Below are positions 3,078 through 57,906 of a DNA stretch of 64,000 nucleotides, one piece after another (positions within the stretch are counted from its first letter, which is position 1; each line of letters opens with the position of its first letter). A program made the position numbers and the translations under genes. The notes beneath the pieces are model-generated. The model was given only the letters and a program-made list of their open reading frames with translations. It did no database searches and was not told where the DNA came from. Origin of the DNA: Prorocentrum cordatum (Eukaryota); the NCBI GenBank assembly GCA_963575745.1, contig CAUYUJ010000050.1, positions 1 to 64,000 of the forward strand, in the 5' to 3' direction.

Positions 3078-3174
<97 letters not shown>

Positions 3175-7370: not shown

Positions 7371-7433
7371 CTAGAAAGTTGCATGTCCAGGAGGCCTCTA
7401 GAAAGTTGCATCTCTTCTCCAGCGGGAGCGCAG

Positions 7434-7470
7434 GTACACACGGACGGAGTCCTCGCAGAAGGCTCTGTAT
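7434..7470 (+). CDS. PDE12-like exon (YTRTESSQKALY); 3' boundary uncertain (GC donor at 7462 possible)
   Basis: Acceptor cag|G at 7433/7434; peptide matches the YxxTExSxxxLY segment preceding PYC. Confidence 0.6.
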
Positions 7471-10400
7471 CGGGCAGGCCGGCGCCACGACTGGGTCCGT
7501 GGGGAGGAGGGCGTCCCTGGGTCGGCGGAGGCAGCGGCGGCACGGCTCGGGCACACGGTCAAGACGCGGAGGTAATGCAGGGTGACGATTCATAAAAAGA
7601 TTGGAGAGAACGATTAAACAAATATGTTTCTGCGAGTTCTGCGTATTTTTCTGACTGGAGGAGAACGATTAAAAACATAATTTTCCAGCCCGCGGCCGGT
7701 TTTTTCTAATCGTCATCCCGGGCGCCGCCGCGTGAACACGACCCCCGGTCACTTATCAACCGTCATCATCCGTTAAGGACACCTTCGGGCTCATGGCGGG
7801 AGCTCCGGTTTTACTTTTCAGGCCGTTCTTCGGGACCAGGTCGGGGAAGCTAGTCGAATCCGAGGCTCGCCGTGGCCAGAAAAAACAGTTCGTTCCTTAT
7901 TCATTTTTCTCGGTTCTTGATGGGAGCACGATGGTTGCAGGTGGTGGACGCTCTGAAGGTGTCTGGGGCCAGTGGAGCCGACACTGCGACCGCACCTGGG
8001 GGGCGACCTGAACTGGGTTGGGATGAAGTAGCGAATCGGATGGTGGCGAGCTTTTGTGGAGGGGTGGGGTGGGGTTCAAGAAGCCAGCAGTGAACAGTCC
8101 GAGAGCTCTCCGAGGCTATGGAAGAGCCCCTTCCCCAAGAAAACCTGAGAGCCCCCGATTCAGATATCTCCCTGACCCCTTCATTCGTGCCACCTTCGCC
8201 CCTCCACAAATTCTCATTTTGAATGCTACACCGACTTTCTCCCCCGAAGACGTCCAAAGGGCTTTACGCCCTCTCCGTACATTATTTCTTACACGCAGGA
8301 GCTTGGAGGTCCATGTGCTATGTTTCTGCCGCGCAGGGATGCTGTCGGTTTTTTAAGAATGGTGTTCTCGCTGCAGTGTGGGCCTCATTTTAGCACCGTC
8401 GCCCTGCTCCAGTCGTTCAGAATGGCACTCTCGCCCCAGCGCGGGCCACTTTCCTTCACCAGAGGAGGAGGAGGAGGAGGAGGAGGAGAAGGAGGAGGAG
8501 GAGGAGGAGGAGGAGGAGGAGGAGGAGGAAGCGGAGGAGCCAAGTTCAGAATGGCACTCTTGCCCCGGCGCGGGCCACTTTCCTTCACCCGAGCCCTCCC
8601 TCCTCGTTTGCCGCGCTCCTCTCCCCTCTTCCGCTTTCCCTTGCTTCTCGTGCTCGTCCGCTTCTCCCACTCCTGCTCTTGCTCCTTCTCCTCCTCCTCC
8701 TCCTCCTCCTCCTCCTCCTCCTCCTCCTCCCCTCCCCATTCTCCTCCTCCTCCTCCTCCTCCTCCTCCTTCTCCTCCTCCTCCTCCCTCCTCCTCCTCCC
8801 TCCTCCTCCCTCCTCCCTCCTCCTCCTCCGCCTCCTCCTCCCCTCCTCCTCCTCCCCCCCTCCTCCTCCTCCTCCTCCTACTCCTCCTCCTCCTCCCCCC
8901 TCCTCCCCCTCCTTCTTCGTCCTCCTCTTCCTCCTGCTCATCCGCAGCCTCGTCCTCCAATGTGCATGTGTCCTTTTCTCCGATTGCGCACATCACGATG
9001 GCGTCCTCTTTGAGGTTGCAGGCCCATTGTGGCACGCGTCGGTAGATTGAGGAACGCTCAGCGCAATTGGAAGGGGTAGGTGGGAGGGGTAGGATGTCAG
9101 ATCTAGCGCGAGCGCACCTAGCTTGTCCCTCCATCTCTCCCTTCTACATCTCCCTCCTCCCCCTCTCTTTCATCCCTCCCTCGACCTTGTCCTCCTCCAT
9201 CTTCCCTCCTCCCTCCTTCTCCATCCCTCCTTCCTCCATCCCTCCCTCCCTTTCCTCCTCACCCCCGCATGCTCCCTCCCCTCCTCCTCCTCCTCCTCCT
9301 CCTCCTCCTCCTCCTCCTCCTCCTCGACCTCCTCCTCTTCCTTCTCCTCCTCCTCCTCCTCCTTCTCCTCCTCCCCTCCTCCTCCTCCTCCTCCTCCTCC
9401 TCCTCCTCCTCCTCTCCTCCTCCTCCTTCTCCTCCTCCTCCTTCTCCTCCTCCACCTCCTCCTCGTTCTCCTCCCTCGTCCTCCTCCTCCTCCTCCTCCT
9501 CCTCCTCCTCCTTCTCCTCCTCCTCCTCCTCGCTGGAGCGACGGGGGCGACCTCGTTCCAGGTCGCGCTGCGACGTCGTGACGCCCTCGCAGCTCCCGCT
9601 TGCGGGGTGGCGGATCCGTACTGCGCGCCCGAGCACATGTGCTTCGAGTACCGCAGGTGCTGCTCCTTCCCTCCCTTCCCCTCCCTTCCCCTCCCCTCCC
9701 CACCCCTCCCTTCCCCCCGCCTCCCTGCCCTGCCCTGCCCTGCCCTCCCTCCCCCTCTTCCCCTTCTGTCCGTAGCCATCCTGGCTCAGGCCAGCTAGGT
9801 TCCAGCGCGCTTGGGCTGGAGTCGGGGAGCCGCCATTGCCGGCGGCCGGTGCTGCTCGCGTGCCGTGGAGGTCGTCCGCTTCTCGAGGGGAGGACGAGGA
9901 GGAGGAGGAGGAGGAGGAGGAGGAGGAGGAGGAGGAGGAGGAGGGTGAGAAGGAGGAGGAGGAGGAGGAGGAGGAGGAGGAGGAGGAGTATGTTCGTCGC
10001 CAAGATGAGTTCTGGAAGTCTCGCTGCGAGTCCATCGGCCAGATCTTCGGGTACCCCGAGCTTGTCGACAGGCTCCTGGCCGTGGCTCCCGTGCTGGCGC
10101 TCCAGCTTGGCAAGAGCCAGGAGCTGAAGCGGAATGTGGCGATTCATGCTGAGATGGTGCCGCATCCGCTCAGCGCGGCCGCTGCTGCTGACCTCCGCAG
10201 TGCCGCGCAAGGCCCCCGCCTGGGCCGCGCGGATGCTGCTGTGGGCGTGCCCCCCGCCCACGACCGCCGTTCAGACGGCGGCGCAGAGGGTGCGCAGGCA
10301 GAGGGGGGAGCGTGTGTGGTGGACCCGCGCGGACGGAGGGAGGAGGCGGACCTCGGCGCCGCCAGCCGCTCCGCGGAAACCGCGGTATTCGTGCCTCGCG

Positions 10401-13400
10401 TCGTCAGCGGCGGGGACGGCGACGACACGGAGCTCGTGCACCAGTTCGACGGTGGCTGGGTCACGGCGTCGGCGCGCTGGCCTGGGCTGTGGGAGGTCTG
10501 CGCCCTCCCCCCAGTGTTGCTGCCCGACGTCTCCTCCGACCTCGTGGTGCACGCGTCGCCCTCGATGCTGCAGGAGTTTGGTCGCGGGGGCTCCGCCTCC
10601 GCGTGCGAGTACGCCCTTGGTGCTTGGGATGGCTGCCCAGAGGAGGGGGACGATGCGGACTCTATCGTTCATGACCTCGTGAGCGAGGCGGCGCTTCTGG
10701 CCGGCGCGCTATTTTCCGTGCAGTCGCAGGGCTTCGTGCTCGCCGCCTCACCGTGCTTGGCCTCTGTTGGTCTGGACGAGTACGCTTCGGGCTCCTCGAA
10801 GCGGAAAGGGCTGCATCGTCCTCAGCAGCGTGCGCCTTTGCCTCCTCGTGGTGCGCTGGTTAGCTTCTCGCAGGAACAGCCGAGCTCCTCGTCGATCAAG
10901 CCGCCAGACCCACAGGCTGAGCGGCAGCAGCAGCAGTGTTGTCGCAAGCGACCCTGCTCGAGGTCTGCCCGTCGGAGTGTGGCTGCCGATAGGGAGTGCC
11001 CTTCGTGCTGCACGTGTCGTGCTGCTTCTTCCTCGCGGTCTTCATGGTGCTCAGAGGGCGTGCAGCACGGTGAACAGAAAGTTTGCGTAACGGTAGACAT
11101 CCCCCTCTCTCTTTCTTCCCTCCCTCCTTCTCACCTCTCCATCCGCTTCTCTTCTTCCTCCTCCTCCTCCTCCTCCTGCTCCTCCTCCTCCTCCTCCTCC
11201 TCCTCCTCCTCGTCCTCCTCCTCCTCCTCCTCCACCTCCTCCTCCTCCTCCTCCTCCTCCTCCTCCTCTTCATCCTCTCCTCCTTCTCCTCCTCTTCCTC
11301 CTTCTCCTCCTCCTCCTCCTCCTCCTCCTTCTCCTCCTCCTCTTCCTCCTCCTCCTCCTCCTCCTCCTCAGGCGGAGGGGGCAGGCGTGGGCGCGACTGC
11401 GGCCCTCCCTATGGGCCCAGGCTGTGGCTGCCTGACCACAGGCGCGCCACATTCGGGTGCCGTATCCTGCACTACGAGATGGCCAGCATCAGTATCGTTC
11501 AACCGACCCCCATCCCCATCCTCATCCCCTGCGAGACCCCCACCAAATTACCACCCCAGTTGGGGGATGCACCCCTCGAAACCCAGAGGGAACGGCCTAT
11601 GGCCCCATCTATGTGGGCAAATCGGCCAGTGGGGCCCAGGCCACGCCGCTGGGGATGGGGATCGGTTAAACGATACTCGCAGCACTGGCGTGCCTGCTCC
11701 CAGCAGCGCCTCACCGGCGCGAGTGGAGCGCACGAGGGACCCCAGCCCTGCCTGCCGCCCAGCTGGGCCCCCGTGCACAGCACTCAGCGCGCCCCCCCCC
11801 CCCCCCGAGCGCCTGCGGACCAGCGCGCGCCCGACCAGAGATCCAGCACCTCCTCGGCGCCACCCGCTGCAGTGGGACCCCGGGCCAGCAGCTCCACCAG
11901 CGGAGGCCGTCTCCAACAGCGGCGGGCCCCTCTCGGCGCAGCGCGGCGTCCCCGTCGAGACGGCGAGCTGCCCCGCCCGGGCCCCCCCCCCGCTGGCCCA
12001 CAAAGCCGCCGGGTCGGAGCCTCCCGGCGGCAGGCCTTCTGCGCAAGCCGATGGTCGCCCTGCTGGCGGGCCCTCGGTGGGGCCTGCGCCTCGGGCGGCC
12101 GCGGCCGCGGCTCGGGCAGGCAGGGGCGCGCCCCTCTCCCTCTGCGCGGTCGTCCGCGCGGCCACCGCGGCCCTCCCGGCCGAGCAGGACCACCACCGTG
12201 GCGATGGCCCAGTGCAGCGGGCGCCGCCACCACTGGCGTGGGCAGGCCGGGGCTCAGCAGGCCGAGGAGGCGCCGCCGGCGATGTCCAGCGCCCTATTCC
12301 GAGGTCGGCACGTCGGGCCAGCACGGTCCTCCTCCTCCTCCTCCTCCTCCTCCTCCTCCTCCTCCTCCTCCTCCCCCTCCTCCTCCTCCTCCTCCTCCTC
12401 CTCCTCCTCCTCCTCCTCCTCCTCCTCCTCCTCCTCCTCCTCCTCCTCCTCCTCCTCCTCCCCACAAGCCGTCGTAGGGGTGCCGCTTGGTGGTGGTCCT
12501 TCTGCGCAGGCGGACGGTTGCCCTGAGGTCGGGCCTCGGGACGGGGCCCGCGCCTCGAGGTGCTGCGGCTGCGACGACCGCCTGCGCGGCTCGGGCGGGG
12601 GGGGGCAGCCGCCCCCGCAGCGGCCGCGAGGTTGCGGTCGACTGGCTCCTGGAGTGCGCGGGGATGGCTCGGCCAGAGGAGGTAATGCTGGGGAAACAAC
12701 AAGTGGCATAAACATAAGAACTCGGAGGTCCGCGCGGATTTCTCGGATCGGCGCCGGGGCCCTCCGGCGGCGCCTCCGGCGCCGCCCCTGGCGCGCTCCG
12801 CGCGCGAGGGAGGGGGGTCCACCGCCGATCTGAGAAATCCGCGCGGACCTCCGAGTTTTTATGTTTATGCCACTTCTTGTTCTCCTAGTTAAATGCCCAC
12901 TGCGTGGTGGAGAGTCAGTGGGGACGACCATCACAGCGCGCGTGGGCTGCAGCCTAGTCTGGGTCGGGCCGGCTTCCGCAGCGTCGAGCGTGGCGTAGCG
13001 TAGCGGGCAGTCGCCAGGACTGCCGTCACAGCGCGCGTGTCTCGGAGCTGCGGCAGGACCACTTCGACGCCAAGACCGCGGACGACCTCGACGGGATCGC
13101 GGGGAGAAGTCCTGGGGGGGACCCCGTGGAGGGGAACGCCTCAGGCACGCAGTCGCCACGGCGAGCTGGGGGCGTTATGACGCGAAGTCTTGAGGAAGCC
13201 CCCAGCGCGGGGAACGTCTCAGGCTCGACGTCGCCACGTGGAGCTGGAGCCTCGAGAGCGGGCCGCATGGGCGCAGCACGTCAGCGGTATCATCAGCGAG
13301 GTCTACAACGAGTCCCTGGCCCTTGTCGGGGTCACAGACAACCTGATAGACAAGAACCACATCCTGCCCCGTGGCCCGCCTGCGCCCGAGCGGCCGCCGG

Positions 13401-16400
13401 CCGTCGCCGTGGGGGGCGGGGGGGGGGCCCTGGTAGTCGTGAAGCTGTGTCCCAGGGGCTCATCCCGCTCAGTCGGGCAGCAGCCCGCACGCCGCTGCCA
13501 CGGACCACCGCGCCCACCGAGCGGTGGGAGAGCGCGCCGCCGCTGGAGAGGCGGCGTGGGCGGGGCCTCGGCAGCCAGGAGGGGCGGCGCGTCGGTTAGG
13601 GCGGGGCGGAGAGCAGCTCGCTGAGCACCGAGAAGCCCTTCGCCAAGCCAGGGGCAGCCGCGCGACCGCCCCACGAGGGGGAGTGGCGCGCAGCAGGCGG
13701 GGGGCCCGTCGCCCAGAGGTCGGGGACGAGCCGCCGGCGCGGCGCCTTCGGGGGCCCCTGTCGCCACTGGAGGCCCCTGCAGCCCCCTGCAGTTGGCGCG
13801 CAGGGGCGAGGAGACGGGCGCCGAGGTCTCGGCGGCCAGAGGGCGGGGATGAGCCGCCAGCGCGGAGCCTCGCGGGGCCACCGCCGCGCTTGGGAGACCC
13901 TGCAGCCCCCCCCCCCAGGCCGCGTGCGGTGGCGAGGCGCGTGCCACCTCCTCCTGGTCCTCCTCCTCCTCCTCCTCTTCCTCCTCCTCCTCATCCTCCT
14001 CATCCTCCCTCCCTCCGTCCCTCCCTCCCTCCCTCCCTCCCTCCCTCCCTCCCGCCGCCACGGCCCCAGGGGCTCCCAGAAGGGACCGGCACCCGCGAAC
14101 GGGATCTCTGGGGCGGCCGGAATGGTCGATCCGATCGCTCCCTCGCGCCAGTGACATCGCCGCATTCGGCGAGGGGCCCCGCATGAATTATACATTAATT
14201 CTCTTGCACAGCTGTGCTCTAGAGCTCGGACATCTTTATTTTCGTGTCGTGTCGTGTCGTTCGTCCCCCTGCCCCCCCCCTGCCCTCCCCCGTCCAGGCC
14301 CCCCAGGGCAGCCCCCCTGGGCCTCCCGTCCAGGCTCCCCAGGGCAGCCCCCCTGGGCCTCGGACACCTTTATTTTCCTGTCGTGTCGTGTCGTTCGTCC
14401 CCCTGCCCCCCCCCCTGCCCCATCCCCGCCCAGGCTTCCCAGGCTCTTGGGGAGCCACTGGTCCTGGTCCTGACCTCCCTGGCCCCGCTGGCCCTGGTGT
14501 CCTGGACCCAGCCTCCCCCCCCCGGCCCTGGCCACAAAAAGTGAACTCCTGGAGGAAGGAGGCGAAAGCTTCCTGCCTCCAGCAGCTCCTTTGTGCAAGA
14601 GCCAGGGCACGCGTGCCACTTGTTATTACTGGGAGGCGAAGGAGGGGTAGGCGAAGGGGCGGGAGGCGATTGCTGCAGCAAGGGCGGCCCAGCAAGGGAG
14701 AGGGAAGAGAGCGGAAAGGGGCGGGGGGCAGGGGCGGTAGTGGTGGTCGTGCCGGTGGTCGTTGTGGTGGTCGGAGTGCTGGTGGTCGGTCCGTGCTGGT
14801 GGTCGGAAAGGCGGTCGTGGCGGCCCTGGCTATAGCCAGGCTGGTGGTAGTAGAGCTGGAGGCGGCCGGACTGCGGTGGTTGCGTTGTTGGCCGTGCTGG
14901 GGGCGGCCAAGGCGGTCGTGGCGGTGGCCGCAAAAACCGTGGTGGTTGTTACGGCAGTTGGTGGCGGTTGTCGTCGCCAAGGTTGCCGTGGTGGTCGGTG
15001 CGGCCGCTGGTGGTGGCCGCGGTAGCGGTGGTCATTGTCCTGGTGCCTGTCCGAACAGCACCGTGGGCAGCAGGGTTGGTGTCCAGGTAGCTGCCGGCCT
15101 AGCGTCCGAGCGCACTCACAGCATCTCGGCGTTGCCAGTCTGCAGGCGTCTGCTGATTTGCCTCCACAGCGTTCCGAGGACCACGGCCCGGTCAGCGTCG
15201 TCGAGCCCGTGGCCGTACGACTGGATGAACTCGGCGGCTGTGTCGGACGGGCGGCCGCCCGACTCGAACACTAAGGGCGCCAAGTTCCCGTGCTGCGGAG
15301 GGTAGCGCTCGCGCTTCTCGTGGACCGTCTGCGCCGCCGCGACCCCGTCTCTGTTGGATCGAGCGCGCCTGCGAGGGCCGTAGGTGCTGCATTCGCAGAT
15401 TACGCTCCAATCCACATACACAGGCTGACCTGTGCTGGGGTCTCGTGCACAAACGTCCAACTTCGCCTCCTCCATGACGCCCGTCTGCGGGTCAATCCTG
15501 TCCCAACCAGGAACTCGCTGCTCCTTGACCGCGTAGTAGCCCGTGAGGCGTGCGTGCGTGGGGGCGTGCCAGTCCCTCATGCTGTCGTGGCGGCCTGCGC
15601 GGGACCCCCCCACAGGGCAGCTGCAGGCATGCCACCCACGCGCGTCCAAGGGATCGTTGCACGGCAGCCCTGTGTCGGCGTATTTGTGCTGGCAGCGAGC
15701 TCCGGGCGGGCACACCGGCACCCGCAAGCGCTTCTTGCACGCCGCAAGGAAATGCTTATCCTGCATGGGCAGGTCACCCTCCTCACGGGGGAGCAGGAAT
15801 CCCCCGGCGCCTGGGCCTCCTGTTCCGCGGAAGTGGAGTCGGTCGTCCTCTCCCAACGTTCCCAGCAAGCGTTCCCTCTCCACGGCGAGGACCTCGCTCT
15901 GCCCCACTGCCCCTGCAGCTTCAGTTGCGGTTCCTGGAAACAGTCCAGCCACTCGAACGGGTCGTTCCCCATAGCTCCCTGCGTTCGCAGCGCCGCCTCC
16001 GCCTCCCGCATCGATTGGAACGTCAAGGGACAGCGGGCCCGAAAGTCCTCCCAAGTAGCGAACCCAGCGCCGAGGGCCACGTCCTGCATGACAAACGCCC
16101 AGCTCGCAGCGTACGCGGCCGGCGCTGTCTCCTTGGCTGAAGGGAGGGCACACCCCCGTCGACCAGCCGCAAGGTGGCCTGCAGTCTTTGCGTGTCGTCC
16201 AGAGGGGCCTGCAGGAGGTCTTCGAGGCATCCGAACACAGCGCCATCGAAAGTGTCAGTCCACGCTAAGTTGTAGTTGTACGCGGCGCGAAGGTGGTGCG
16301 TCACCGCGCCCTGGGCGAAGGTGCGGAGGAGGACCCAAGCTCCCTCTGCGGAAAGTCCAGCATTCCGAAGCTCTTGCGCCCCTTACTCCCTCCCTCCCTC

Positions 16401-46400: not shown

Positions 46401-47005
46401 TTTATCACCCTGCGGGTGATAAGGAGGTTGTGGGAGGGTGGGGGGAGGGGGGCGGCTCATGACGACAACTGTGTTGAACGTGGTGATGATGGGCGATGAT
46501 GGTGCGGATGACGTGGCGGATTTTTTTTGTTCCTTCGCCTGGGTGATCGTATAGGTATCTCACTATCGATCTCACTATCGATCTCACTATCGATCTCACA
46601 TTCGGTCTCACTATCGATCTCAATCGATATCACAATCGATCTCACAATCGATCTCACATTCGGTCTCACTATCGATCTCACTATCGATCTCACTATCGTT
46701 CTCACTATCGATCTCACGATCGGTCTCACAGTCGATCTCACGACAGGACACCGACGGGACACCGACGGGACACCGACGGGACAACGGCGAGCCACCGACG
46801 GGACAATGCGGGCCCCCGCTTGACAACACAAGGGTGGGGGGGGGGGAAACATTTGTGTTGGCGGACCCCTAGCGACAGCATAATGAATTCCTCTCGCCCG
46901 CCCACGCAGCTTCGCCTCGCCCGCACGCACGGCACGAGCACGAACTCGAAACTCGATTTCCCGGTGGGGGGACTCCGTTACACTGCGATCTCACCCCCCA
47001 ACCTC

Positions 47006-47045
<40 letters not shown>

Positions 47046-50927: not shown

Positions 50928-50980
<53 letters not shown>

Positions 50981-51030
50981 CGAACGGTGACTAATCATTA
51001 TGATGATGATGCTGACGATGATGTTGATGT

Positions 51031-51073
<43 letters not shown>

Positions 51074-51497
51074 GATGGTTCTGATGCTGATGACGATGAT
51101 GATGGTGATGATGCTGATGATGATGCTGATACGGATGACATGACCTTGCGGATGATGATGTTGATGTTGATGATGATTATGATCATGTTCTGATGGTTAT
51201 GATTATGATGCTCAAGATGATACTGATCATGGTGATGGTGATGAAACTGTTGATGATGATGAGGGTGACGATGCTGAGTATGATGCTGTTGATGGTGATG
51301 GCTAGATGGTGGCGACGATGACGACGACTAAGATGATGAGGATGATGATGATGAGGAGGAGGAGGAGGAGGTTGATGATGATGAATATGATGATGATGGC
51401 GATGATGCTGTTGCTGGTGCTGATGCTGATCTTGTCGATGCTGGTGCTAATGCTGATGCTGATCATGATGATGAGGATGAGAAGAAGGAGCGGATGC

Positions 51498-51530
<33 letters not shown>

Positions 51531-51761
51531 CGATGATGATGCTGATGATGGTGATGATGATGAGGAGCAGGGCGACGACGACGACGATGCCGTTGATAAT
51601 GATGATGATGGTGGGGGCGACAATGATGATGCTGATGACGATGATGACAATGATTATGCTGCTGATGATGCTGATGCGAATGATGATGGAAACGACGATG
51701 ACGATCCTGATGTTGATAATGATGATGTTGATGATGGCGATGACGGTACTGTTGGTGATTC

Positions 51762-51801
<40 letters not shown>

Positions 51802-51839
51802 ACTGGTGATGGTAAGATTGATGATGATGATGATGTTGC

Positions 51840-51884
<45 letters not shown>

Positions 51885-51936
51885 CGTTGATGATGGTGAT
51901 GTTGCGGTTGTTGATGCTGATGTTGATGCTGCTGTT

Positions 51937-51967
<31 letters not shown>

Positions 51968-52151
51968 AGTGTGGTGCTGATGCTGCTGACGACGATGCTG
52001 ATGATGATGCTAATGGTGATGGTCATCGCGATACTGGTGTTGTCGATGATGCTGATGATGCTGCTGATCATGATGATGCAAATGATGATGCTGTGAGGGT
52101 GATCATGATGACAACGACGACAATGATGATGATGATGATGATGATGATGAC

Positions 52152-52206
<55 letters not shown>

Positions 52207-55200
52207 ATGATGACGAGGATGAGGATAAGGATGAGGATGAGGATGAGAGTGATGATGATTATGATGATGCTGATGATGTTGATGAAAAGCTGCTGCCGAT
52301 GACGATCGCCCATTGCGCTTCTGCTGCGCCCAGGGCCCCTGGGGATGTGCTCTCCTGGGGGAGGTCCCCGCGAGTCTTGGTGTCCTGGGCTGCAATTCGT
52401 CGGGGTGCTGGCCATCTACCTGGCGTCTGTCGAGGCCTGAAGCGGGCCCGCCGACCGCCCCCGCCGCCCGCTGTCCGACTCGGACGGCGGCGCCAAGCCT
52501 CGTGCGTCGTGCCTCCTCCTCTTCCTCCTCCTCATCCTCCTCCTCTCCTCGTCGTCGTCCTCCTCCTCCTCCTCCTCCTCTTCCGCCTGCTCATCCTCCT
52601 CCGCCTCCTTTTCCTCTCCTCGTCCTCCTCCTCCTCCTCTTCTTCCCCCTCCTCTTCCTCCTCCCTCCTCCTCCTCCTCCTCCTCCTCTCCTCCTCCTCC
52701 TCCTCCTCCTCCTCCTCCTCCTCTCCTCTCCTCTCCCCACTCCCCTCCTTCTCCTCCTCTTCCTCCCTCCTCCTCCCTCCTCCTCCTCCTCCTCCTCCTC
52801 CTCCTCCTCCTCCTCTCCTCCCTCCTCCTCCTCCTCCTCCTCCTCCTCATCATCATCATCATCATCATCATCCATCCCTTCTCCTTATAGATATCTCCTC
52901 CCTGTCACACCCTGAGGCCAGTTTTCAGGGTGGGCCGGGCGTTTCGCCTGAGATTTCCTCACCATTTTGACTCTGAAGCTTACAAAATGACAACAGCTTC
53001 ATAGACGGAGGGCGGGTCGTTTTCAACATGTGGTTTTCGCCTTAGCGCCGCGCGCATTCGCTTTAATCAAATTGCAAGAGTTTTCAATGTGGGTTTCGCC
53101 ATAGCGCCGCGCACAACATTCGGTTTTTCAAACTGAAGAGTTTCGCGAATTGAGGGCGGGCCGTTTTCAAAATGTGGTTCTCGCCTTAGCGCCGCGCCCA
53201 TTCGTTTTTGAATAATTTGCAAGAGCTTTATGGTTTGAGGGCGGGTGGTTATCAACATGTAGCTCTCGCCTTAGCGCCGCGCACATTCGTTTGGACTAAT
53301 TGCAAGAGTTTCACGGATTGAAGGGTGGTTCCTTTTCAACATGTGGCTCTCGCTTTAGCGCCCCGCACATACTTCTAAAACATTTGCAATAATTTCACGG
53401 ATTGATGGTGTTTCCTTTCCAAATTAGGCTCTCGCCTTCGCGCCGCGCACATTCGTTTACAACATTTGCAAGAGTTTCACAGATTCCCGTGATCAGCGTA
53501 CTAGAAATGGTGTTTTGGAAGGGTTCAGGATTGTGCGGGTGCAACAGTTATGTTGATTCGCAGTGTTGAAGTCCCACACATGGCGCTCTGGTAAGATTCC
53601 GGATCGTCAAGGCGCAGCAGTCAGGTTGATACGTGGCGTTGAAATCCCGAGCACGATGTTTTGGCATGTTTCAGGATCTTCAAACGGTTTTCTTCCAACG
53701 AGGCAGTTCCCACAATGGAACTGAACCGTTCTAGGGGGCCCATGAACAGGGAGGTTGGAGGGAGGGTTAATTCCAACATCGTTGATGACTCTTGGTTTTA
53801 CATGGTCTTCCTTTCCCTCCTCCTCCTTCTCCTCTCCTCCTCTTCCCCCTCCTCCTCCTCTTCTCTCTCCTTCTCCTCTCTCCGCCTCCTTTACCTCTCC
53901 TCTTCGTCGGTCGTCGTCGTCCTCCTCTCCTCCTCCTCCTCCTCCTCCTCCTCCTCCTCCTCCTCCTCCTCCTCCTCCTCCTCGTCGCCCTCTTCGTCCT
54001 CCTTCTGCTCCTGCTCCTTCTCCTTTCCCTCCCCCAGGCCCCAGGCCAGCCGCCTGCGCTCCGGTGTGCGCAGCCTCGGGGCCTTCTTCATCGGGTCGGT
54101 TCCGGGCCACGCGCTCGGCAGAGCCGCACAACCACCAGTCGGGATGGTGATTCGCAGCGAGTACCTGGCGCCCTGAGCCGCCTAGGCCAATGCTGTGTCA
54201 CGTTGTGGGCTTCGGCTCCAGCGTCGGGTGGCGGCGGTCTGGGTGGGGCTGCGCGGAGCCGCCGCAGTCCAGCCCAGCCCAGCCCAGCCCAGCCCAGCCC
54301 AGCCCAACCCTCCTCCTCTGGATCATGATGATGATGATGATCATGATGATGATGATGATGATGATGATGCTGGTGGTGTTGTTGATGATGATGGTGATTA
54401 TGATGACGATGATGATGATGATGATGATGATCATGATGATGATGATGATGATGATGTTGATGATGATAATGGTGATGATGGTGGTGGTGATGGTGATGAT
54501 GTTGTTGATGATGATGTTGATAATGATGATGGTGGTGGTGATGTTGTCATTGGTGATGATGATCGTGCTGCTTCTGCTGCTTCTGCTGCTTATGATGATG
54601 ATGATGGCGATGCTGATGTTGGTGCTGCTGGTGCTGACGAGTATGATGATGATGGCGATGTTGCTGACGATGGTGACGCTAGTGATGATACTGATGATGA
54701 TGATGTTGATGGTGATGATGTTGATATTTCTGGTGATGGTGATGATGACGGCGAAGCTGATGGTGATGATGCTGGTGGCGATGCTGCTGCTGATGGGGAC
54801 GTGGAAGGTATTGATGATGATGTACTGATGATGATGTTGTTGATGTTGATGTTGATGTTGATGATGTTGCTGCGTCTGGTGACGACGATGAGGATGGCGA
54901 TGGTACTGGTCATGCTTATGATGCCGATATGGTGGTGATGGTGGTGTTGATGGTGATAATGAGGATGATGATAAGGATGACGATGATGCTGGCGATGACG
55001 ATGATGGTGTTTATGATGTTGTTGATGGTAATACTGATGATGATTGCGGTGACGATGACAGTGATACTGATGATGACGACGACGAGTACGACGACGATGC
55101 TGATGCTGCCGATGATGCTGATCAGGATGCTGATGATGCTGATGATGGTGATACTGATTGTGATCATGATGAAGGTGATGCTGACGATGATTCTGATGAC

Positions 55201-55821
55201 GGTGATGCTGACGATGCTGACGATGACCATGACGATGGCGATGCTGACGATGATGCTGACCATGGTGGTGTTTATGATGATGTTGACCAGGATGCGGATG
55301 ACGATGATGAAGATAATGATGAGGCAGCGGATGCGGGTGATGATGAAGATGAGGGTACGGATGATGCTGAGGATGGTGATGTTGTTGGTGATGGTGATGA
55401 TGATGATGGCACTGCAAAGTATGATGATGATCCTGATGATGACATTGTTGATGATGTGGATTGGTGATGACGGTGATTTTGATTATGCTGCTGATGATGG
55501 TGGTGATAGTGGTGGTGATGATGATGCTGTTGATGATGATTCTGATGGTAGTGATCATGATGATGATGTTGATGATGCTGCTGATGCTGCTGCTGATGTT
55601 GATGATGATTATGATGCTGCTGCTGATGATGATGATTATGCTGATACCGATGATGATGGTTATGATGATGACGATGATGATGATGATGCTGATGCTGCTG
55701 ATGATGCTGCTGCTGATGATGACGATTATGCTGCTGCTGATGATGACGATGATGATGCTGATGCCGATGATGATGGTTATGATGATGGTTATGATGATGA
55801 TGATGCTGCTGATGATGATGC

Positions 55822-55866
<45 letters not shown>

Positions 55867-57906
55867 CGATGATGGTGATGGTGGTGCTGCTGCTGAAGAT
55901 GATGACGGGGAGGAGGATGACGACGACGAGGAGGAGAAGGAGGAGGAGGAGGAGAAGGAGGACGAGGATAGTGCTGGACAGGGAGGGGATGAGGAGGAGG
56001 AGGAGGAGGAGGAGGAGGAGGAGGAGGAGAAGGAGGAGGAGGAGGAGGAGGAGAAGAAGGAGGAGGAGGAGGAGGAGGGGGAGGGGGAAGATAACTGGCT
56101 GGGCGAAGGAGAAGCAGGAGGAGGCGAGGGAGGGGGACGGACGAAGCAAGGAAGGCAGGAAGAGAGAGGGAGCAGGACCGGGAGGATAGCCCTTCTTCTC
56201 TTGCCTGTCCGATTCTGTAATGTCCGCCATTCCGTTGACACAGTCCTTCCCCTCCTTCTGGCGGCCCAGAGCGACGGCTGCGCGCTGCTCGTGCGCAAGT
56301 CGAAGTTTGAGCTGGTGTCGCGCGAGGACATCGAGTCCTACTCCGAAGCAGGCGAGAGGGGAGGATCGGCATGACAGACTGCGGTTGGCTGAGATCGAGG
56401 AGGCGCAAGCATGGACTACGGCGCGTGCATCCAGCGGCGGCCACGAGACAAACGGGTAGAACGCGAACGGGTCTTCAGAGGTTCTTCGGCCGCGCTGGGG
56501 CTCTCGGTGGGGCCCCGCCCTGGGCCCCCCCATGGGACCGCCAGGCAGCGACTCGGGATGAAGAGCTGGTCCCGTGGAAGGCCCCCCAGGGGTCCAGGCC
56601 CCATGGGACCGTCAGGCAGCGAGTCGGGATGAGGATCGGGGGCGGCAAAGAGGGGTGTGATGACGAGGTGGGGGGGACATCATGGCAGGGGCCACGATAT
56701 CTCCCCAGATGTTTCGTGGCGCCTCTGCTCATGCCATGACGTCCCCGCCCCACCCCTGGGCCGCGCACGTGCCGCTGGCCATGATTTGCGCCCCCCCCTC
56801 CTGGACGCCCCCGCTCTTGGCCGCCCCCGAGAGGAGCTGGTCCCGGGGAAGGCCCCTCGGGGGTCCGGGACCCGTTTCTCTCGGGACCCATTCCATCTCT
56901 TTTATATGGAAAGTCGGGGAGGTTGGGCCGACCGAGTGCCAGCAGGATCCCAGAGGGCCACGGCCACGGGCGGGAGGAGCATGAAACGGATGATGAGGAG
57001 GGGAGAAGCAGGGGGAGGAGGAGGAGGAGGAGGAGGAGGAGGAGGAGGAGGAGGAGGAGGAGGAGGAGGAGGAGCAGGAGGAGGAGGAGGAGGAGGAGGA
57101 GGAGGAAGGCGGGATCAAAAAGGCGGATGCGGGTAGGGAGGGATGGGGTATGGGAGAGTAGTGGAGAGGAGGGGAGGCGAGGAGAGAGGAGCGGAGAAGA
57201 GAGGAGGGGAGAGCGGATCTGGAATGAGGGACGGAAGGGGAATGAAGGGAGGGAGCTAGGGGAATGTAGGTAGTGATGGAGATAGGGATGAAGGAATCAG
57301 GGATGGAAAGAAAATGAGAGTAAGGGAGAAGGAGAGAGACGGAGTGGCATGGACATGTGTATCTGTATACATATACATACATACATCGCGGGCAGATGGA
57401 GAGAGGAAAATACGGACAGGAAGAGTCGCAGGGAGCCTGATCATCAGGGAAAAGGAAAGGGAGAAGACATAGCGAATCTATGCTTGTATGGTTATATAGA
57501 TGACTTGCTGCATGCACGTGATAAGAGGTAATGTGTACAAGTGGGAATGGACGATATTATAGGCTACGAGGAGGGACGATGATATTACACATAAATGTAG
57601 GGAGATAGTGTTACCGTGAGAGAGGGGGGGAGGGAGGGGGAGATGGATAAGAGACAGAGAGAGGGAGAGAGAAAGAGCGAGAGAGAGAGAGAGCGAGAGA
57701 CAAACATATGAGAGGGAGGGCGAGGGAGGGGAGATAATTATGAGGAGACTGATAGCACGATGAGGATAACGCGGGAGGAGAAGGAGGCGCGCGCAATGCT
57801 CTCGGCCGCGGCAGTCGCCACCAACCCGCGCACCAAGCCCGTCCTGGAGCAGCTGCGGAAGGCGATGCCGCAGCTGGAGGAGGAAGTGCTGCCGCACCTG
57901 AAGACG
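7434..57906 (+). CDS. PDE12: PDE12/CCR4/nocturnin-family EEP nuclease (deadenylase/2',5'-phosphodiesterase-like), partial multi-exon gene; exons ~7434-7470, ~9613-9656, 16950-16977, 36829-36855, 38185-38232 (or -38265), 56270-~56326, ~57787-57906
   Basis: Exons in order read YTRTESSQKALY / PYCAPEHMCFEYR / R-HLLMREILE / VDADLLCLQ / ECPVHFFRHGLSPLLE(AGYRGRVAPGQ) / SDGCALLVRKSKFELVSRE / ARAMLSAAAVATNPRTKPVLEQLRKAMPQLEEEVLPHLK. This is collinear with the PDE12 segment as recalled from memory (YAQTEFSRTVLYPYCAPYALELDYRQNLIQKELTGYNADVICLQE...EGLATFYRKSKF). Three junctions are phase-compatible with AG|G acceptors and GT/GC donors. Confidence 0.8.
9613..9656 (+). CDS. PDE12-like exon (PYCAPEHMCFEYR); 5' boundary uncertain (in-frame AG|G at 9561/9562)
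   Basis: PYCAP...xYR motif; phase-2 GT donor at 9657. Confidence 0.75.
9769..9790 (+). other. Relic dinoflagellate spliced leader
   Basis: TCCGTAGCCATCCTGGCTCAGG, 19/22 match to DinoSL. Confidence 0.8.
9836..11100 (+). pseudogene. SL-headed retrocopy/retroelement 5' ORF, unknown protein (EYVRRQDEFWKSRCESIGQIFGYPELVDRLLAVAPVLALQLGKSQELKRNVAIHA...)
   Basis: Follows relic SL; long open complex frame interrupted by a GGA tract; ends in a CCT tract. Confidence 0.5.
11490..11678. mobile_element. MITE with TIR SAGTATCGTTTAACCGATCCCCATCCCC (copies 18024-18209, 22188-22378)
   Basis: ~28-bp inverted termini; three similar copies. Confidence 0.85.
12690..12885. mobile_element. Foldback MITE with ~60-bp TIR GGGGAACAAGAAGTGGC... 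(copy 18215-18405 flanked by TTA/TAA; PIF/Harbinger-like)
   Basis: Long inverted arms; GGG termini and TWA flanks at 18212-18214/18406-18408. Confidence 0.8.
15116..16385 (-). mobile_element. 5'-truncated CRE-like (R2-group) non-LTR retrotransposon: post-RT region, CCHC knuckle and restriction-like endonuclease; two frameshifts (~16155, ~15903)
   Basis: Joined frames give VLLRTFAQGAVTHHLRA, ATLRLVDGGCAL..APAAYAASW, CNDPLDARGWHACSCPVGG..RHD, KLDV..VYVDWSV, EKRERY, PLVFESGG, LQTGNAEML-stop: motifs typical of RLE-bearing CRE elements; ACC-rich 3' tail to ~14735. Confidence 0.85.
16950..16977 (+). CDS. PDE12-like 28-nt micro-exon (R/HLLMREILE)
   Basis: aag|G acceptor, GAG|gc donor; phase 2 in and phase 0 out, exactly bridging the neighbouring exons. 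Confidence 0.8.
19051..19200 (+). CDS. Probable first coding exon of WSRELN-repeat protein gene (MAWSREQNAKGAELL...GAGWSRELNAKG); 3' boundary uncertain
   Basis: GCAGCCATGG start context, upstream cag|g at 19036; two WSRE(Q/L)N repeats. Confidence 0.55.
19413..19672. mobile_element. MITE with TIR CCCTGACTCCGGATCCGCCCTACTTTG and internal AGTAGGGCGGAAAT repeats (copies 22745-22921, ~44625-44886)
   Basis: Inverted termini and shared internal motif. Confidence 0.75.
19963..20245. mobile_element. MITE with TA flanks, TIR CACAGCCGTGAC..., internal 19-bp perfect inverted repeat
   Basis: TA|CACAGCCGTGACAAAAGTT ... AACTTTCGTCACGGCGATG|TA; cggagtagtttccgatccc / gggatcggaaactactccg. Confidence 0.7.
21500..21634 (+). 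CDS. Internal exon of WSRELN-repeat gene (…GAGWSRGLNAEGVDVLAEGRLMQHYDE); 5' boundary uncertain
   Basis: Repeat motif; ends GAG|gc and splices in frame to 23459, rebuilding one repeat unit. Confidence 0.65.
23035..23274. mobile_element. MITE with ~29-bp TIR GGGCCCTGGAAAYGRCAGGGCCGTTTTTT (opposite-strand copy 37149-37384)
   Basis: Inverted termini; ccgtttt-rich interior. Confidence 0.8.
23459..24673 (+). CDS. Terminal exon of tandem-repeat protein (31-aa WSRELNARAAEVASPVMQHYDAITRSPPGAT units); function unknown
   Basis: Polypyrimidine tttttttctgtgcag|G acceptor; 404-codon open frame; four near-identical 93-bp units (23486-23857) plus ~7 protein-level diverged units; TGA stop. Confidence 0.85.
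   Translation, partial: ATMVPPGVAWSRELNARAAEVASPVMQHYDAITRSPPGATWSRDLNARAAEVASPVMQHYDAITRSPPGATWSRDLNARAAEVASPVMQHYDAITRSPPGATWSRDLNARAAEVASPVMQHYDAITRSPPGATWSRDLNARALETMLAKTMQGHSNEVATPPPGSVWSRELNAKGAEARSTSSRGGWDGAWSRELNRKGMEMEKDQAGSTIMRKHHDAITAVPAGTAWSRELNRKAMSIEAANSMDATTAVPAGSCWSKDLDSSAMEAQLEKHCDAITAAQTVTWSKELNQKAADSEAAWSIQKHYDAITEAAARGAWSRELNLQAVEAWDNQKLCEARPIRPQTTPELKPHGRERQFSDASTAAPMSRQGTERALSWAEDDLDDDDWCHEEPRALERCARIPE
26569..26746 (+). mobile_element. Tc1/mariner-type MITE, CAGTCGGGGCG family (copy 36930-37105)
   Basis: TA|C(A/C)GTCGGGGC ... GCCCCGACTG|TA, TA duplication in both copies. Confidence 0.8.
27963..28127 (+). mobile_element. MITE-like repeat with imperfect AAAAGGTACC arms (copies ~6104-6255 reverse, ~17011-17332, partial ~21660-21750)
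   Basis: Shared core gctggattcgcctcgaaatcctgg. Confidence 0.7.
29938..30110. mobile_element. MITE with ~38-bp TIR ACCACCCACCAAACCACCCCAACCCAACCCGAAG (copy 30962-31136)
   Basis: Inverted arms; two highly similar copies 1 kb apart. Confidence 0.85.
32410..35098 (+). mobile_element. 5'-truncated non-LTR retrotransposon ORF: reverse transcriptase plus C-terminal C2H2 zinc fingers; one frameshift at ~33756-33761
   Basis: RT motifs KPSGEPRLL, AHGYSKGKRRE, FYDLTNAF (33351), QGALPGCTISS, YADD (33699-33710), then in -1 frame ANDGK, RYLGPHL, CTI..CGRSF..LRAH, CPLC..H, CDLC..HAWMAH; no endonuclease domain visible. Confidence 0.9.
35384..36075 (+). CDS. Unknown ~230-aa protein downstream of the RT ORF (frameshift ~35731; no stop seen before the CCT tract)
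   Basis: GCCATGG start; MEQWRQ..AKLSLNNAQDVARI..GSPDVHSF.. joined to KNIETFM..GRCVCQQAF..GAVRKLGRAPRGSLERRAQQLL; strong GC3 codon bias. Confidence 0.7.
36829..36855 (+). CDS. PDE12-like 27-nt micro-exon (VDADLLCLQ)
   Basis: cag|G acceptor, CAG|gc donor; EEP DxxCLQ(E) motif. Confidence 0.85.
37113..37451. mobile_element. MITE with TIR AGGGRGCCAGATGCGAACCCTACCCC, containing nested MITE 37149-37384
   Basis: ~30-bp inverted termini at 37113 and 37451. Confidence 0.75.
38185..38265 (+). CDS. PDE12-like exon (ECPVHFFRHGLSPLLE[AGYRGRVAPGQ]); donor at 38233 or 38266
   Basis: tgcag|G acceptor supplies the metal-binding E of the LQE motif; GYxG motif. Confidence 0.75.
41060..41405. repeat. ~72-bp tandem repeat (~4.5 copies)
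   Basis: gagccaactgtaggccacttcgtg at 41121, 41193, 41266, 41338. Confidence 0.9.
41407..43012. repeat. 1.6-kb GCTGAG/GCAG minisatellite
   Basis: Direct reading. Confidence 0.95.
45550..46438 (+). mobile_element. Non-autonomous piggyBac-like element with ~77-bp internal tandem repeats (inverted copy ~52872-53766)
   Basis: CCCTCCC..CTCC / GGAGG..GGGAGGG ends; second copy ends AGGG|TTAA at 53766; repeats cgaatgtgcgcggcgctawggcgagagccacatttt. Confidence 0.6.
46555..46805. repeat. 12-bp CTCACTATCGAT and 11-bp GGGACACCGAC minisatellites
   Basis: Direct reading. Confidence 0.9.
49445..50841. mobile_element. Non-autonomous TIR element with inverted subterminal repeats and central GGGACAGT minisatellite
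   Basis: gtcactaccggttcgaaccc (left) versus several ggttcgaaccggtagtgac (right); cgccggcaaacga / tcgtttgccggcg. Confidence 0.7.
50865..52300. repeat. Degenerate (GAT)n tract
   Basis: Direct reading. Confidence 0.95.
52872..53766 (-). mobile_element. Second copy of piggyBac-like non-autonomous element
   Basis: Reverse-complement similarity to 45550-46438; TTAA at 53767-53770. Confidence 0.6.
54320..55910. repeat. Degenerate (GAT)n tract
   Basis: Direct reading. Confidence 0.95.
56270..56326 (+). CDS. PDE12-like exon (SDGCALLVRKSKFELVSRE); 3' boundary uncertain
   Basis: CCR4-family DGCAxxxRxxxF motif; pyrimidine tract and AG at 56268-56269. Confidence 0.8.
57787..57906 (+). CDS. Probable PDE12-like exon (ARAMLSAAAVATNPRTKPVLEQLRKAMPQLEEEVLPHLK); boundaries uncertain
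   Basis: Coding-like GC3-rich island after a purine tract; resembles the helical segment after RKSKF in PDE12. Confidence 0.55.

What the first reader, a model, noticed from the sequence alone, without database searches (positions are those of the whole stretch)
7434..57906. Hidden PDE12/CCR4-like nuclease gene in micro-exons spread over 50 kb
Seen: seven short coding islands occur in the correct order and strand, none recognisable as a gene in the ORF track. Junctions 9656/16950 (GT-AG, phase 2), 16977/36829 (GC-AG) and 36855/38185 (GC-AG) splice in frame to PYCAPEHMCFEYRRHLLMREILEVDADLLCLQECPVHFFRHGLSPLLE. Joining 38265/56270 would add AGYRGRVAPGQSDGCALLVRKSKF. Known: these are EEP-superfamily CCR4/PDE12 motifs. 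Inference: about 370 coding nt, introns up to about 20 kb, and almost everything else in the window lies inside its introns. The YNIL and NTHL exons were not found and may lie outside the window.
Basis: partly seen in the sequence, partly recalled or inferred. Interest (0 to 1): 0.8.

Follow-up and report, generated by a model that had tools for sequence, protein, structure and literature searches.

The report
Split EEP nuclease gene, dinoflagellate-style introns
Five short coding pieces scattered over about 47 kb of GC-rich, repeat-filled DNA join in frame into the front part of a PDE12/CCR4-type nuclease, which looks like an ordinary gene for a large dinoflagellate-type genome and not a new kind of system.

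Summary
The core observation holds. Five + strand pieces (9562-9656, 16950-16977, 36829-36855, 38185-38265, 56270-56351) join in frame without stops. Each is preceded by AG, ends in AG and is followed by GT or GC.

The joined peptide matches an EEP (Exo_endo_phos) profile. I built that profile from 28 bacterial domains chosen only by Pfam membership. The peptide scores 12.2 bits, and 0 of 5000 shuffles and 0 of 5000 random open composites of the window reach that. Third-position GC is 0.88 against a null of 0.64; 4 of 5000 reach it.

Assignment to the PDE12 subfamily is only suggestive. One exon finds only human PDE12 in the PDB, at E about 0.9.

I obtained no RNA evidence. The runs I found held only simple repeats.

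Islands 1 and 7 could not be joined in frame to the core. The first-strand Asn exon and the whole C-terminal catalytic half are not in the window.

GC content, GC-AG donors, AGG acceptors and long introns match published dinoflagellate gene statistics (PMC10666404, passages). The introns are not empty: one holds a conserved antisense ORF family.

Verdict: a real but ordinary partial gene model of low interest.

The parts
7434..7571 (+). Island 1: open stretch with splice-like edges. Membership in the gene is not shown.
   Evidence: AG|G before and AG|GT after. No Pfam hit. GC3 is 0.63, 0.82 and 0.73 in the three frames. No frame gives a first-strand Asn motif. The frame with the highest GC3 cannot join any acceptor of exon 2.
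9562..9656 (+). Exon 2 (95 nt if the AG|G acceptor at 9560 is used; alternative starts at 9593 or 9539). It ends in phase 2 before a GT donor.
   Evidence: In-frame join to exon 3. GC3 0.77. It adds nothing to the EEP profile score (drop 0.1 bit). Alone it hits hevein in the PDB. The link to PDE12 rests on a motif I recall, not on a tool result.
9657..16949 (+). Intron, 7293 nt, GT-AG, GC 0.70
   Evidence: 18% tandem repeats. Holds conserved ORFs on both strands.
16950..16977 (+). Exon 3, a 28-nt micro-exon (helix before the LQE motif)
   Evidence: AAG|G acceptor, GAG|GC donor. GC3 1.0 over 9 codons. Aligned without gaps to EEP profiles; contributes 1.6 bits.
16978..36828 (+). Intron, 19851 nt, GC-AG
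   Evidence: 10% tandem repeats. A long CT-rich tract lies directly before the acceptor.
36829..36855 (+). Exon 4, a 27-nt micro-exon that encodes the DADLLCLQ part of the EEP 'LQE' motif
   Evidence: CAG|G acceptor, CAG|GC donor. This 8-residue peptide occurs in frame in 97 bacterial loci. I scanned 95 of the ORFs, and 38 carry PF03372 against 3 with any other family. It contributes 13.2 bits in the unbiased profile test.
36856..38184 (+). Intron, 1329 nt, GC-AG
   Evidence: A 9-nt inverted match lies near both ends; 7 of 500 random pairs reach 9 nt.
38185..38265 (+). Exon 5, 81 nt. Its first codon is the catalytic Glu of LQE.
   Evidence: CAG|G acceptor, CAG|GC donor. GC3 0.93. Contributes 7.2 bits. 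Alone it has no PDB, Pfam or Atlas hit.
38266..56269 (+). Intron, 18004 nt, GC-AG, 55% tandem repeats
   Evidence: Contains inverted arms at 45451-45832 and 53482-53882, 86% identical.
56270..56351 (+). Exon 6, about 82 nt (DGCA strand and the following strand). The 3' end is uncertain.
   Evidence: CAG|A acceptor. CAG|GC at 56351/56352 is the only AG|GY donor, and it is in phase 1. GC3 0.89. Its only PDB hits are three human PDE12 chains, E 0.88-0.94. The first named Atlas cluster is Nocturnin/PF03372 at 0.80. Contributes 2.3 bits.
57778..57905 (+). Island 7: coding-like open stretch. The junction to exon 6 is unresolved.
Evidence: All nearby AG acceptors are phase 0, while the best exon 6 donor is phase 1 (my reading). 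PDB hits are repeat-protein noise. No Pfam hit.
15119..16382 (-). Conserved ORF family nested antisense in intron 2. Here it is broken over two frames.
   Evidence: 12 database proteins at E 1e-122 to 1e-34, with 51-82% identity, aligned. One relative also matches the neighbouring frame at 16266-16340. No Pfam, PHROG or PDB family.

Best explanation
The window carries the 5' part of a nuclear, spliceosomal gene for an endonuclease/exonuclease/phosphatase (EEP) fold enzyme. The gene belongs to an organism with dinoflagellate-type gene architecture. The enzyme is most likely of the CCR4 / nocturnin / PDE12 branch, that is, a Mg2+-dependent 3' RNA exonuclease or phosphodiesterase.

Five exons of 95, 28, 27, 81 and about 82 nt are separated by introns of 7.3, 19.9, 1.3 and 18.0 kb. 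The introns are largely simple repeats and mobile-element debris. The primary transcript would be spliced at AG|GT or AG|GC donors and AG acceptors. The product runs from just after the first strand, through the helix and the LQE Mg2+-binding Glu, to the DGCA strand.

Shown here: the in-frame joins, the splice dinucleotides, the codon-position bias and the EEP profile match.

Inferred: that it is transcribed and spliced this way, that the missing first-strand exon and the C-terminal catalytic half lie outside the window, and the subfamily and substrate.
For: - In-frame, stop-free join of the five pieces.
- 5 of 5 exons end in AG followed by GT or GC. 5 of 5 are preceded by AG, and 4 of those 5 have AG|G. 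AGGY occurs at only 0.010 per nt in the window.
- Unbiased EEP profile. It was built from 28 domains in 5 bacterial genomes picked by PF03372 only, none with the exon 4 motif. The peptide scores 12.2 bits, HMMER E 1e-5 for one sequence. The alignment covers profile positions 12-77 across exons 3-6. 0 of 5000 shuffles (max 7.9) and 0 of 5000 random open window composites (max 5.4) reach it. The genomic order ranks 1 of 120 permutations.
- Motif-selected profile of 26 domains: 31.9 bits. Decoys that keep the motif score 15.0 +/- 2.8 (shuffled flanks) and 15.1 +/- 3.1 (random window flanks); 0 of 2000 reach the true score in each set.
- GC3 is 0.883 against a null of 0.639 +/- 0.091; 4 of 5000 reach it.
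- The exon 4 peptide is EEP-specific in bacteria: 38 of the 41 Pfam-assignable ORFs, out of 95 scanned.
- Exon 6 finds only PDE12 in the PDB, and its Atlas first named cluster is Nocturnin/PF03372.
- Window GC is about 0.6. Donor and acceptor types and intron sizes fit Table 2 of PMC10666404 (passages read). For one large GC-rich dinoflagellate that table gives genome GC 59.7%, CDS GC 65.9%, GC donors 51.4%, AGG acceptors 79.7%, mean intron 4709 bp and mean gene 24.5 kb.
Against: - No transcript or junction evidence. The one run search used a 10-kb stretch, and its holders had shares of 0.06-0.10. When 4 of those runs were laid on 56100-64000 they covered only simple repeats and gave no joints.
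- No relative of the exon 6 peptide turned up in the 5.8-billion-protein word search. The 1.84-billion representative search gave one hit, a HEAT-repeat artefact. JGI metagenome contigs gave none.
- Single exons give no Pfam hit.
- With the exon 4 motif masked, the motif-selected profile score is -0.6; 29 of 2000 and 57 of 2000 decoys reach it.
- Exon 2 adds nothing to the profile score.
- The permutation test discriminates only weakly: the runners-up score 11.9 and 11.1 bits.
- The first-strand Asn exon and every C-terminal catalytic motif are absent from the window. A complete enzyme is therefore not demonstrated.
- Pfam's own model could not be run on the joined peptide, because joined sequence may not be submitted to the tools.
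Confidence: 0.7

Rival explanations
1. The exons are genuine in origin, but the locus is a decaying or truncated gene copy (pseudogene or partial duplicate). It has been stretched by repeat and mobile-element insertions and no longer makes a complete enzyme.
For: - Only about a third of an EEP domain is present. The first-strand exon and the C-terminal half were not found in 64 kb.
- Exon 6 to island 7 has no clean in-phase junction (my reading).
- No product-like protein or transcript was found in any database searched.
- PMC10666404 (passages) reports extensive gene duplication in one such genome.
Against: - All 10 splice dinucleotides of the five exons are intact.
- There are no stops or frameshifts.
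- The catalytic Glu is kept.
- GC3 is 0.88, as in live coding sequence.
- With introns of up to 20 kb, missing exons 6-10 kb from the window ends are expected, so their absence is not telling.
Confidence: 0.2
2. The pieces come from different loci or a misassembled scaffold, so the 50-kb 'gene' is an assembly artefact.
For: The window is 27% tandem repeat. Long arrays lie inside two introns, and such arrays are hard to assemble.
Against: - Order, strand and phase are all collinear with the protein.
- The window has no N.
- No second copy of any exon motif exists in the window.
- Chance juxtaposition of five collinear pieces of one domain is very unlikely.
Confidence: 0.05
3. Chance: open frames are common in 60% GC DNA, and the reader picked pieces that happen to resemble EEP motifs.
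For: - There are 215 stop-free frames of at least 150 aa in the window.
- Single exons have no significant hit.
- The PDE12 hit has E about 0.9.
Against: - 0 of 5000 and 0 of 5000 decoys reach the true score, and 0 of 2000 in each of two further sets.
- GC3 is reached by 4 of 5000.
- All five exons are flanked by AG ... AG|GY.
Confidence: 0.02

Closest known systems
Human PDE12 (2',5'-phosphodiesterase 12; PDB 4Z0V, 4Z2B, 4ZKF), a mitochondrial EEP-family deadenylase
   Same: It is the only PDB protein matched by exon 6. The match covers query residues 2-25 against chain residues 211-234 of 4z0v_A, the strand after the LQE helix. It has the same fold family (PF03372), as described in PMC9181182 (passages). 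From my recall of the human sequence, not from a tool, the spacing between the Tyr-Arg before the helix and the LQE Glu is identical, and the Pro-Tyr-Cys-Ala-Pro motif is shared.
   Different: The match is E 0.88-0.94 over 24 residues. Exon 2 alone does not retrieve PDE12. PDE12's N-terminal Ig-like domain (PMC9181182) and the C-terminal catalytic half are not seen in the window. The review table lists PDE12 for animals only, and it says this is a literature survey and not a phylogeny.
CCR4 / nocturnin / angel deadenylase-type EEP proteins
   Same: The ESM Atlas first named cluster for exon 6 is 'putative Nocturnin (Fragment)', with PF03372 on 94% of members. All ten best family-bearing hits share that family or clan.
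   Different: The score of 0.80 is below the tool's 0.9 lead threshold, and a third of shuffled proteins also get ten of ten. No alignment to these proteins could be made, because I could not fetch their sequences.
Bacterial Exo_endo_phos (PF03372) domains
   Same: The joined peptide aligns to profile positions 12-77, including the D-x-[LIV]-x-LQE motif and the G-x-A-[IL]-L-x-R strand. The exon 4 peptide is found verbatim in 38 bacterial EEP ORFs.
   Different: These are contiguous, intron-less genes. The segment before the helix (exon 2) has no counterpart in them.
Published gene architecture of large GC-rich dinoflagellate genomes (Prorocentrum cordatum, PMC10666404)
   Same: GC about 0.6. 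GC donors are the majority class. AGG acceptors. Multi-kb introns rich in repeats and introner-like inverted ends. Genes of tens of kb (compared).
   Different: The source organism of the window is not known to me, so the match is by statistics only. The introns of 18-20 kb are about four times that paper's mean, and the 27-28 nt exons are far below its mean exon length of 240 nt.

Membership tests
EEP superfamily (Pfam PF03372 Exo_endo_phos) | Significant match of the protein to a family profile | tested here: met
   Tested with local profiles, not Pfam's own. The unbiased 28-sequence profile gives 12.2 bits, reached by 0 of 5000 shuffles and 0 of 5000 window composites. The motif-selected profile gives 31.9 bits against a decoy mean of 15.0. 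Only profile positions 12-77 of 226 are covered. Pfam on single exons gave no hit.
EEP superfamily (Pfam PF03372 Exo_endo_phos) | Mg2+-binding Glu in the LQE motif after helix 1 | tested here: met
   The Glu is the first codon of exon 5, directly after the exon 4 motif. It aligns to the profile's conserved E.
EEP superfamily (Pfam PF03372 Exo_endo_phos) | First-strand Asn motif (hydrophobic-x-[ST]-[YWF]-N) | tested here: not met
   Not found upstream of exon 2. A regex plus donor scan of 1-9561 gave one AT-rich, unconvincing candidate ending at 4959. Profile scans of all six frames found nothing. The exon may lie outside the window.
EEP superfamily (Pfam PF03372 Exo_endo_phos) | C-terminal catalytic motifs (Asn-x-His strand, Gly-Asp-x-Asn, Ser-Asp-His) | tested here: not met
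   None on the + strand downstream of 56351. I read the three-frame translation of 56200-64000. Six-frame profile scans found no collinear hit. The window ends 6 kb after island 7, which is shorter than three of the four introns.
CCR4 / nocturnin / PDE12 branch of EEP | Closer to this branch than to other EEP branches (ExoIII/APE1, DNase I, sphingomyelinase, inositol phosphatases) | tested here: inconclusive
   Exon 6 has PDE12 as its only PDB hits, but at E 0.88-0.94. The Atlas first named cluster is nocturnin at 0.80. Exon 5 gave nothing. Exon 2 hit hevein. No phylogeny was possible.
CCR4 / nocturnin / PDE12 branch of EEP | Extended segment between strand 1 and helix 1 with the Y-C-P/A motif and a conserved Y-R | not testable with these tools
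   Exon 2 encodes such a segment by eye, but the comparison rests on my recall of PDE12/CCR4 sequences. No tool returned those sequences, and exon 2 does not score against bacterial profiles.
Dinoflagellate-type spliceosomal gene | GT/GC/GA donors with GC the commonest, and an AG acceptor followed by G | tested here: met
   Donors are GT, GC, GC, GC, GC. Acceptors are AG|G in 4 cases and AG|A in 1. Published frequencies: GC 51.4%, AGG 79.7% (PMC10666404 Table 2).
Dinoflagellate-type spliceosomal gene | Spliced, trans-spliced-leader-capped transcript from the locus | not testable with these tools
   No run of the source organism was served. The runs found covered only simple repeats.

The most novel reading that the evidence does not exclude
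The locus is a live, so far unannotated PDE12-type (mitochondrial-style) deadenylase gene of a dinoflagellate. Its 27-28 nt micro-exons are recognised and spliced across 18-20 kb repeat-filled introns through GC donors. This would extend PDE12-like RNA 3'-end quality control to alveolates, whose mitochondrial transcripts are oligoadenylated. It would also give a concrete test case for how micro-exons are defined in genomes with non-canonical donors.
Probability: 0.3. Interest if true: 0.35.

Novelty: new member of a known kind. Interest (0 to 1): 0.2.

Why it matters
The main value is practical. The locus shows that in GC-rich, repeat-rich protist genomes a conserved enzyme gene can be invisible to ORF-based and single-segment profile scans. 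It can be recovered only by spliced alignment that allows GC donors and micro-exons. If the PDE12 assignment holds, it adds an alveolate member to a family that the review I read lists for animals only. It is not a new mechanism or architecture. Gene length, intron length, donor types and repeat content all fit what is published for large dinoflagellate genomes.

Tried and rejected
- Whole-genome search: no genome is held for this window.
- RNA evidence: the single run search used a 10-kb stretch (48500-58499), which is too long to reveal a small RNA. All 24 listed runs held only 0.06-0.10 of the words. I laid 4 of the 24 runs (X1, X13, X17, X18) on 56100-64000, chosen to avoid the long tandem arrays. 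They gave cover only at simple repeats (57306-57401, 60475-60532 and a few 31-mers), no joints and no cover of exon 6 or island 7. This says nothing either way about expression.
- Relatives of exon 6: the word-indexed search of longer proteins found none among 20 candidates. The full HMMER search of 1.84 billion representatives gave one hit, a 940-aa HEAT-repeat protein matched by four summed repeats, which I rejected. An exact 30-nt scan and a peptide-pattern scan of JGI metagenome contigs found none; 596 pattern matches had no tblastn confirmation.
- Single-exon Pfam scans: 0 families for 5 pieces at E up to 10.
- PDB searches: exon 5 gave none. Exon 2 gave hevein through its Cys pattern, rejected. 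Island 7 gave a TALE repeat protein by summed repeats, rejected.
- Atlas with exon 5: no usable hit.
- Pfam on 174 stop-free frames of at least 170 aa from both strands gave only low-complexity noise. Nothing was credible above cut-off, and there was no transposase or RT domain.
- Rfam: 0 families.
- Fetching PDB chains as sequences is not possible.
- A first-strand exon candidate ending at 4959 was rejected as AT-rich and isolated.
- 'DFNAT' at 45670 scores 0.6 bit, lies inside intron 5 and is not collinear, so I rejected it.
- Earlier-findings look-ups returned nothing.

Full report
**What is in the sequence.** The window is 64 kb without N, with GC about 0.5-0.73 per 2 kb and about 0.6 overall. 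Tandem repeats cover 27% of it. They are mostly AGG/CCT-type trinucleotide arrays, plus 1.4-1.6 kb TGA, GAT and GCTGAG arrays. Stop-free frames are everywhere: 215 of at least 150 aa. An ORF list therefore says nothing about genes here.

A script joined 9600-9656, 16950-16977, 36829-36855, 38185-38265 and 56270-56350. I refined the borders as follows:

| Exon | Coordinates | Length | Before the exon | After the exon |
|---|---|---|---|---|
| 2 | 9562-9656 | 95 nt | CAG\|G | CAG\|GT |
| 3 | 16950-16977 | 28 nt | AAG\|G | GAG\|GC |
| 4 | 36829-36855 | 27 nt | CAG\|G | CAG\|GC |
| 5 | 38185-38265 | 81 nt | CAG\|G | CAG\|GC |
| 6 | 56270-56351 | 82 nt | CAG\|A | CAG\|GC |

For exon 2 the alternative acceptors give starts at 9593 or 9539. 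The word AGG[CT] occurs at 0.010 per nt in the window. Finding it at all five 3' borders, in phase, is therefore very unlikely by chance. The introns are 7293, 19851, 1329 and 18004 nt long.

**Is it coding, and is it EEP?** I could not submit the joined peptide to Pfam, the PDB search or the folding tools, because joined sequence may not be typed. Single exons are too short: Pfam returned nothing for five pieces at E up to 10. I therefore brought comparison sequences into the script box by two routes.

*Route 1.* I scanned the 185,579-species genome collection for the 8-residue peptide of micro-exon 4, back-translated with CTN Leu codons. This gave 97 loci. I dropped 2 in-frame ORFs of under 20 aa and scanned the other 95. 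Of these, 38 carry PF03372 (37 above Pfam's cut-off), 3 carry another family and 54 carry none. The micro-exon therefore encodes a motif that is almost diagnostic of EEP domains. A profile built from the 26 hits whose Pfam match covered all or nearly all of the 225-position model scores the joined peptide at 31.9 bits. Decoys that keep the motif but have shuffled flanks, or flanks taken at random from the window, score 15.0 +/- 2.8 (max 28.0) and 15.1 +/- 3.1 (max 29.7). None of 2000 reaches the true score in either set. That profile is biased toward exon 4. With exon 4 masked the score is -0.6, and 29 of 2000 and 57 of 2000 decoys reach it.

*Route 2 (unbiased).* I searched five of the bacterial genomes for PF03372 and took all 28 matches. 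None contains the exon 4 peptide. Against this profile the results were:
- The joined peptide scores 12.2 bits (HMMER E 1e-5 for one sequence). The alignment covers profile positions 12-77 and runs without break through the exon 3/4, 4/5 and 5/6 junctions, including the catalytic Glu of LQE.
- 0 of 5000 whole-peptide shuffles (max 7.9) and 0 of 5000 random open composites of the window (max 5.4) reach that score.
- The genomic exon order ranks first of 120 permutations. The margin is small (11.9 and 11.1 for the next two), because exon 2 lies outside the alignment and exon 3 adds little.
- Shuffling one exon at a time costs 0.1 bits (exon 2), 1.6 (exon 3), 13.2 (exon 4), 7.2 (exon 5) and 2.3 (exon 6).

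Independently of homology, third-position GC in the reading frame is 0.883. Random open composites give 0.639 +/- 0.091, and 4 of 5000 reach the true value. Per exon, GC3 is 0.77, 1.0, 1.0, 0.93 and 0.89.

Chance is therefore excluded for exons 3-6. Exon 2 rests on its phase-correct GT junction, a GC3 of 0.77 and a motif I only recall.

**Subfamily.**
- Exon 6 alone, searched against 177,635 distinct PDB sequences at E up to 10, returns only three human PDE12 chains (E 0.88-0.94). The match falls at the expected place in the fold.
- The ESM Atlas puts 'putative Nocturnin (Fragment)', a PF03372 cluster, first among named clusters at 0.80. All ten family-bearing hits are in that family or clan. 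The tool warns that scores under 0.9 are only leads.
- Exon 5 gives nothing. Exon 2 hits hevein through its cysteines.
- From my memory of human PDE12, the spacing from the Tyr-Arg to the LQE Glu is identical and the Pro-Tyr-Cys-Ala-Pro motif is shared. That is a lead, not a test.

I therefore file the gene under EEP with good support, and under the CCR4/nocturnin/PDE12 branch as likely. PDE12 orthology remains open.

- Island 1 (7434-7571) has AG|G and AG|GT edges. No frame shows a first-strand Asn motif. The frame that joins exon 2 has the lowest GC3 (0.63), and the most coding-like frame cannot join any exon 2 acceptor.
- Island 7 is clearly coding-like (GC3 0.93, GC2 0.42). However, all AG acceptors just before it are phase 0, while the only AG|GY donor of exon 6 is phase 1. 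Either a further small exon lies between them or a weaker phase-0 GC or GA donor is used (my reading).
- No exon for the first strand or for any C-terminal catalytic motif is in the window. With introns of up to 20 kb, and only 9.5 kb and 6 kb of flank, that is not surprising. It does mean that a complete enzyme is not shown.

**Transcription.** I could not test it. I laid four of them on 56100-64000. They covered only simple repeats and gave no joints. Protein and contig databases hold no product of this gene.

**What the introns hold.**
- Pfam finds no credible domain in 174 long frames, and Rfam finds nothing.
- A GC3 scan picked up other coding-like islands. Two of them have real relatives.
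- The first is a - strand ORF at 15119-16264. It has 12 database relatives (E 1e-122 to 1e-34, 51-82% identity, no Pfam). One relative also matches the adjacent frame at 16266-16340, so the copy here is broken.
- The second is a + strand stretch at about 10193-10612, 56% identical to one JGI protein.
- Both lie in intron 2 and look like dispersed-repeat or mobile-element remnants. That function is my inference.
- Intron 5 is 55% tandem repeat and contains inverted arms about 0.4 kb long with inverted 83-85-nt arrays.

**Context.** I read passages of PMC10666404. For one large dinoflagellate genome it reports:
- GC 59.7%, and 65.9% in CDS;
- mean gene length 24.5 kb and mean intron length 4.7 kb;
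- donors GT 24.7%, GC 51.4% and GA 23.8%;
- AGG acceptors 79.7%;
- repeat-rich introns with inverted-repeat 'introner' ends.

The window matches these figures. I do not know the source organism; the match is statistical. A review (PMC9181182, passages) lists PDE12 for animals only, as a literature survey. A full-text search for PDE12 together with dinoflagellate found 3 papers, none about such a gene.

**Verdict.** This is a real, partial, multi-exon EEP nuclease gene model with two micro-exons and long repeat-filled introns. That is ordinary for this kind of genome, and expression, completeness and subfamily remain unproven. I rate it a new member of a known kind, with low interest.

Noticed in passing
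window 15119-16382, - strand (inside intron 2): A conserved Cys/His-rich ORF family with no Pfam, PHROG or PDB match. It has 12 database relatives at up to 82% identity, all on short contigs. The copy here is split over two frames, so it is probably a decayed dispersed or mobile element.
   Followed up: partly
window about 10193-10612, + strand (inside intron 2, within a 916-aa stop-free frame 9776-12523): A coding-like stretch (GC3 at least 0.9) that is 56% identical over 145 aligned positions to one 352-aa JGI protein without any Pfam family. It may be another dispersed repeat or a nested gene fragment.
   Followed up: partly
window 45451-46307 and 53086-53882 (inside intron 5): Large inverted repeat. 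The arms are about 0.4 kb at 86% identity. Each is followed (left arm) or preceded (right arm) by a tandem array of an 83-85-nt unit in opposite orientation. Together they enclose about 7 kb of mostly tandem repeats. The outer ends fade into GAG/CTC repeats, so no target-site duplication could be read. It is foldback-like.
   Followed up: partly
window 33698-35095, + strand: A 466-aa stop-free frame with three sub-threshold C2H2 zinc-finger hits (17-22 bits, below cut-off) and three coding-like GC3 islands (33815-33898, 34445-34519, 34541-34618).
   Followed up: no
window 23063-23146 and 37273-37365: A 23-nt tandem unit occurs in opposite orientations at two places 14 kb apart, on either side of exon 4's upstream intron.
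   Followed up: no
window 36856-38184 (intron 4): A 9-nt inverted match lies about 26-39 nt from each intron end (7 of 500 random pairs reach 9 nt). It resembles the published 'introner element' definition but is partly outside its 30-nt limit.
   Followed up: partly
window 8-38 kb versus 38-58 kb: GC and AT skew flip sign near 38 kb. The + strand is C/T-rich before that point and G/A-rich after it. This reflects the orientation of the CCT versus GGA/GAG arrays. Long CT-rich tracts sit just upstream of the acceptors of exons 2, 3 and 4.
   Followed up: no
window 23486-23884: A 93-nt unit repeated 4.3 times at 98% identity, which suggests a young tandem duplication inside intron 3.
   Followed up: no
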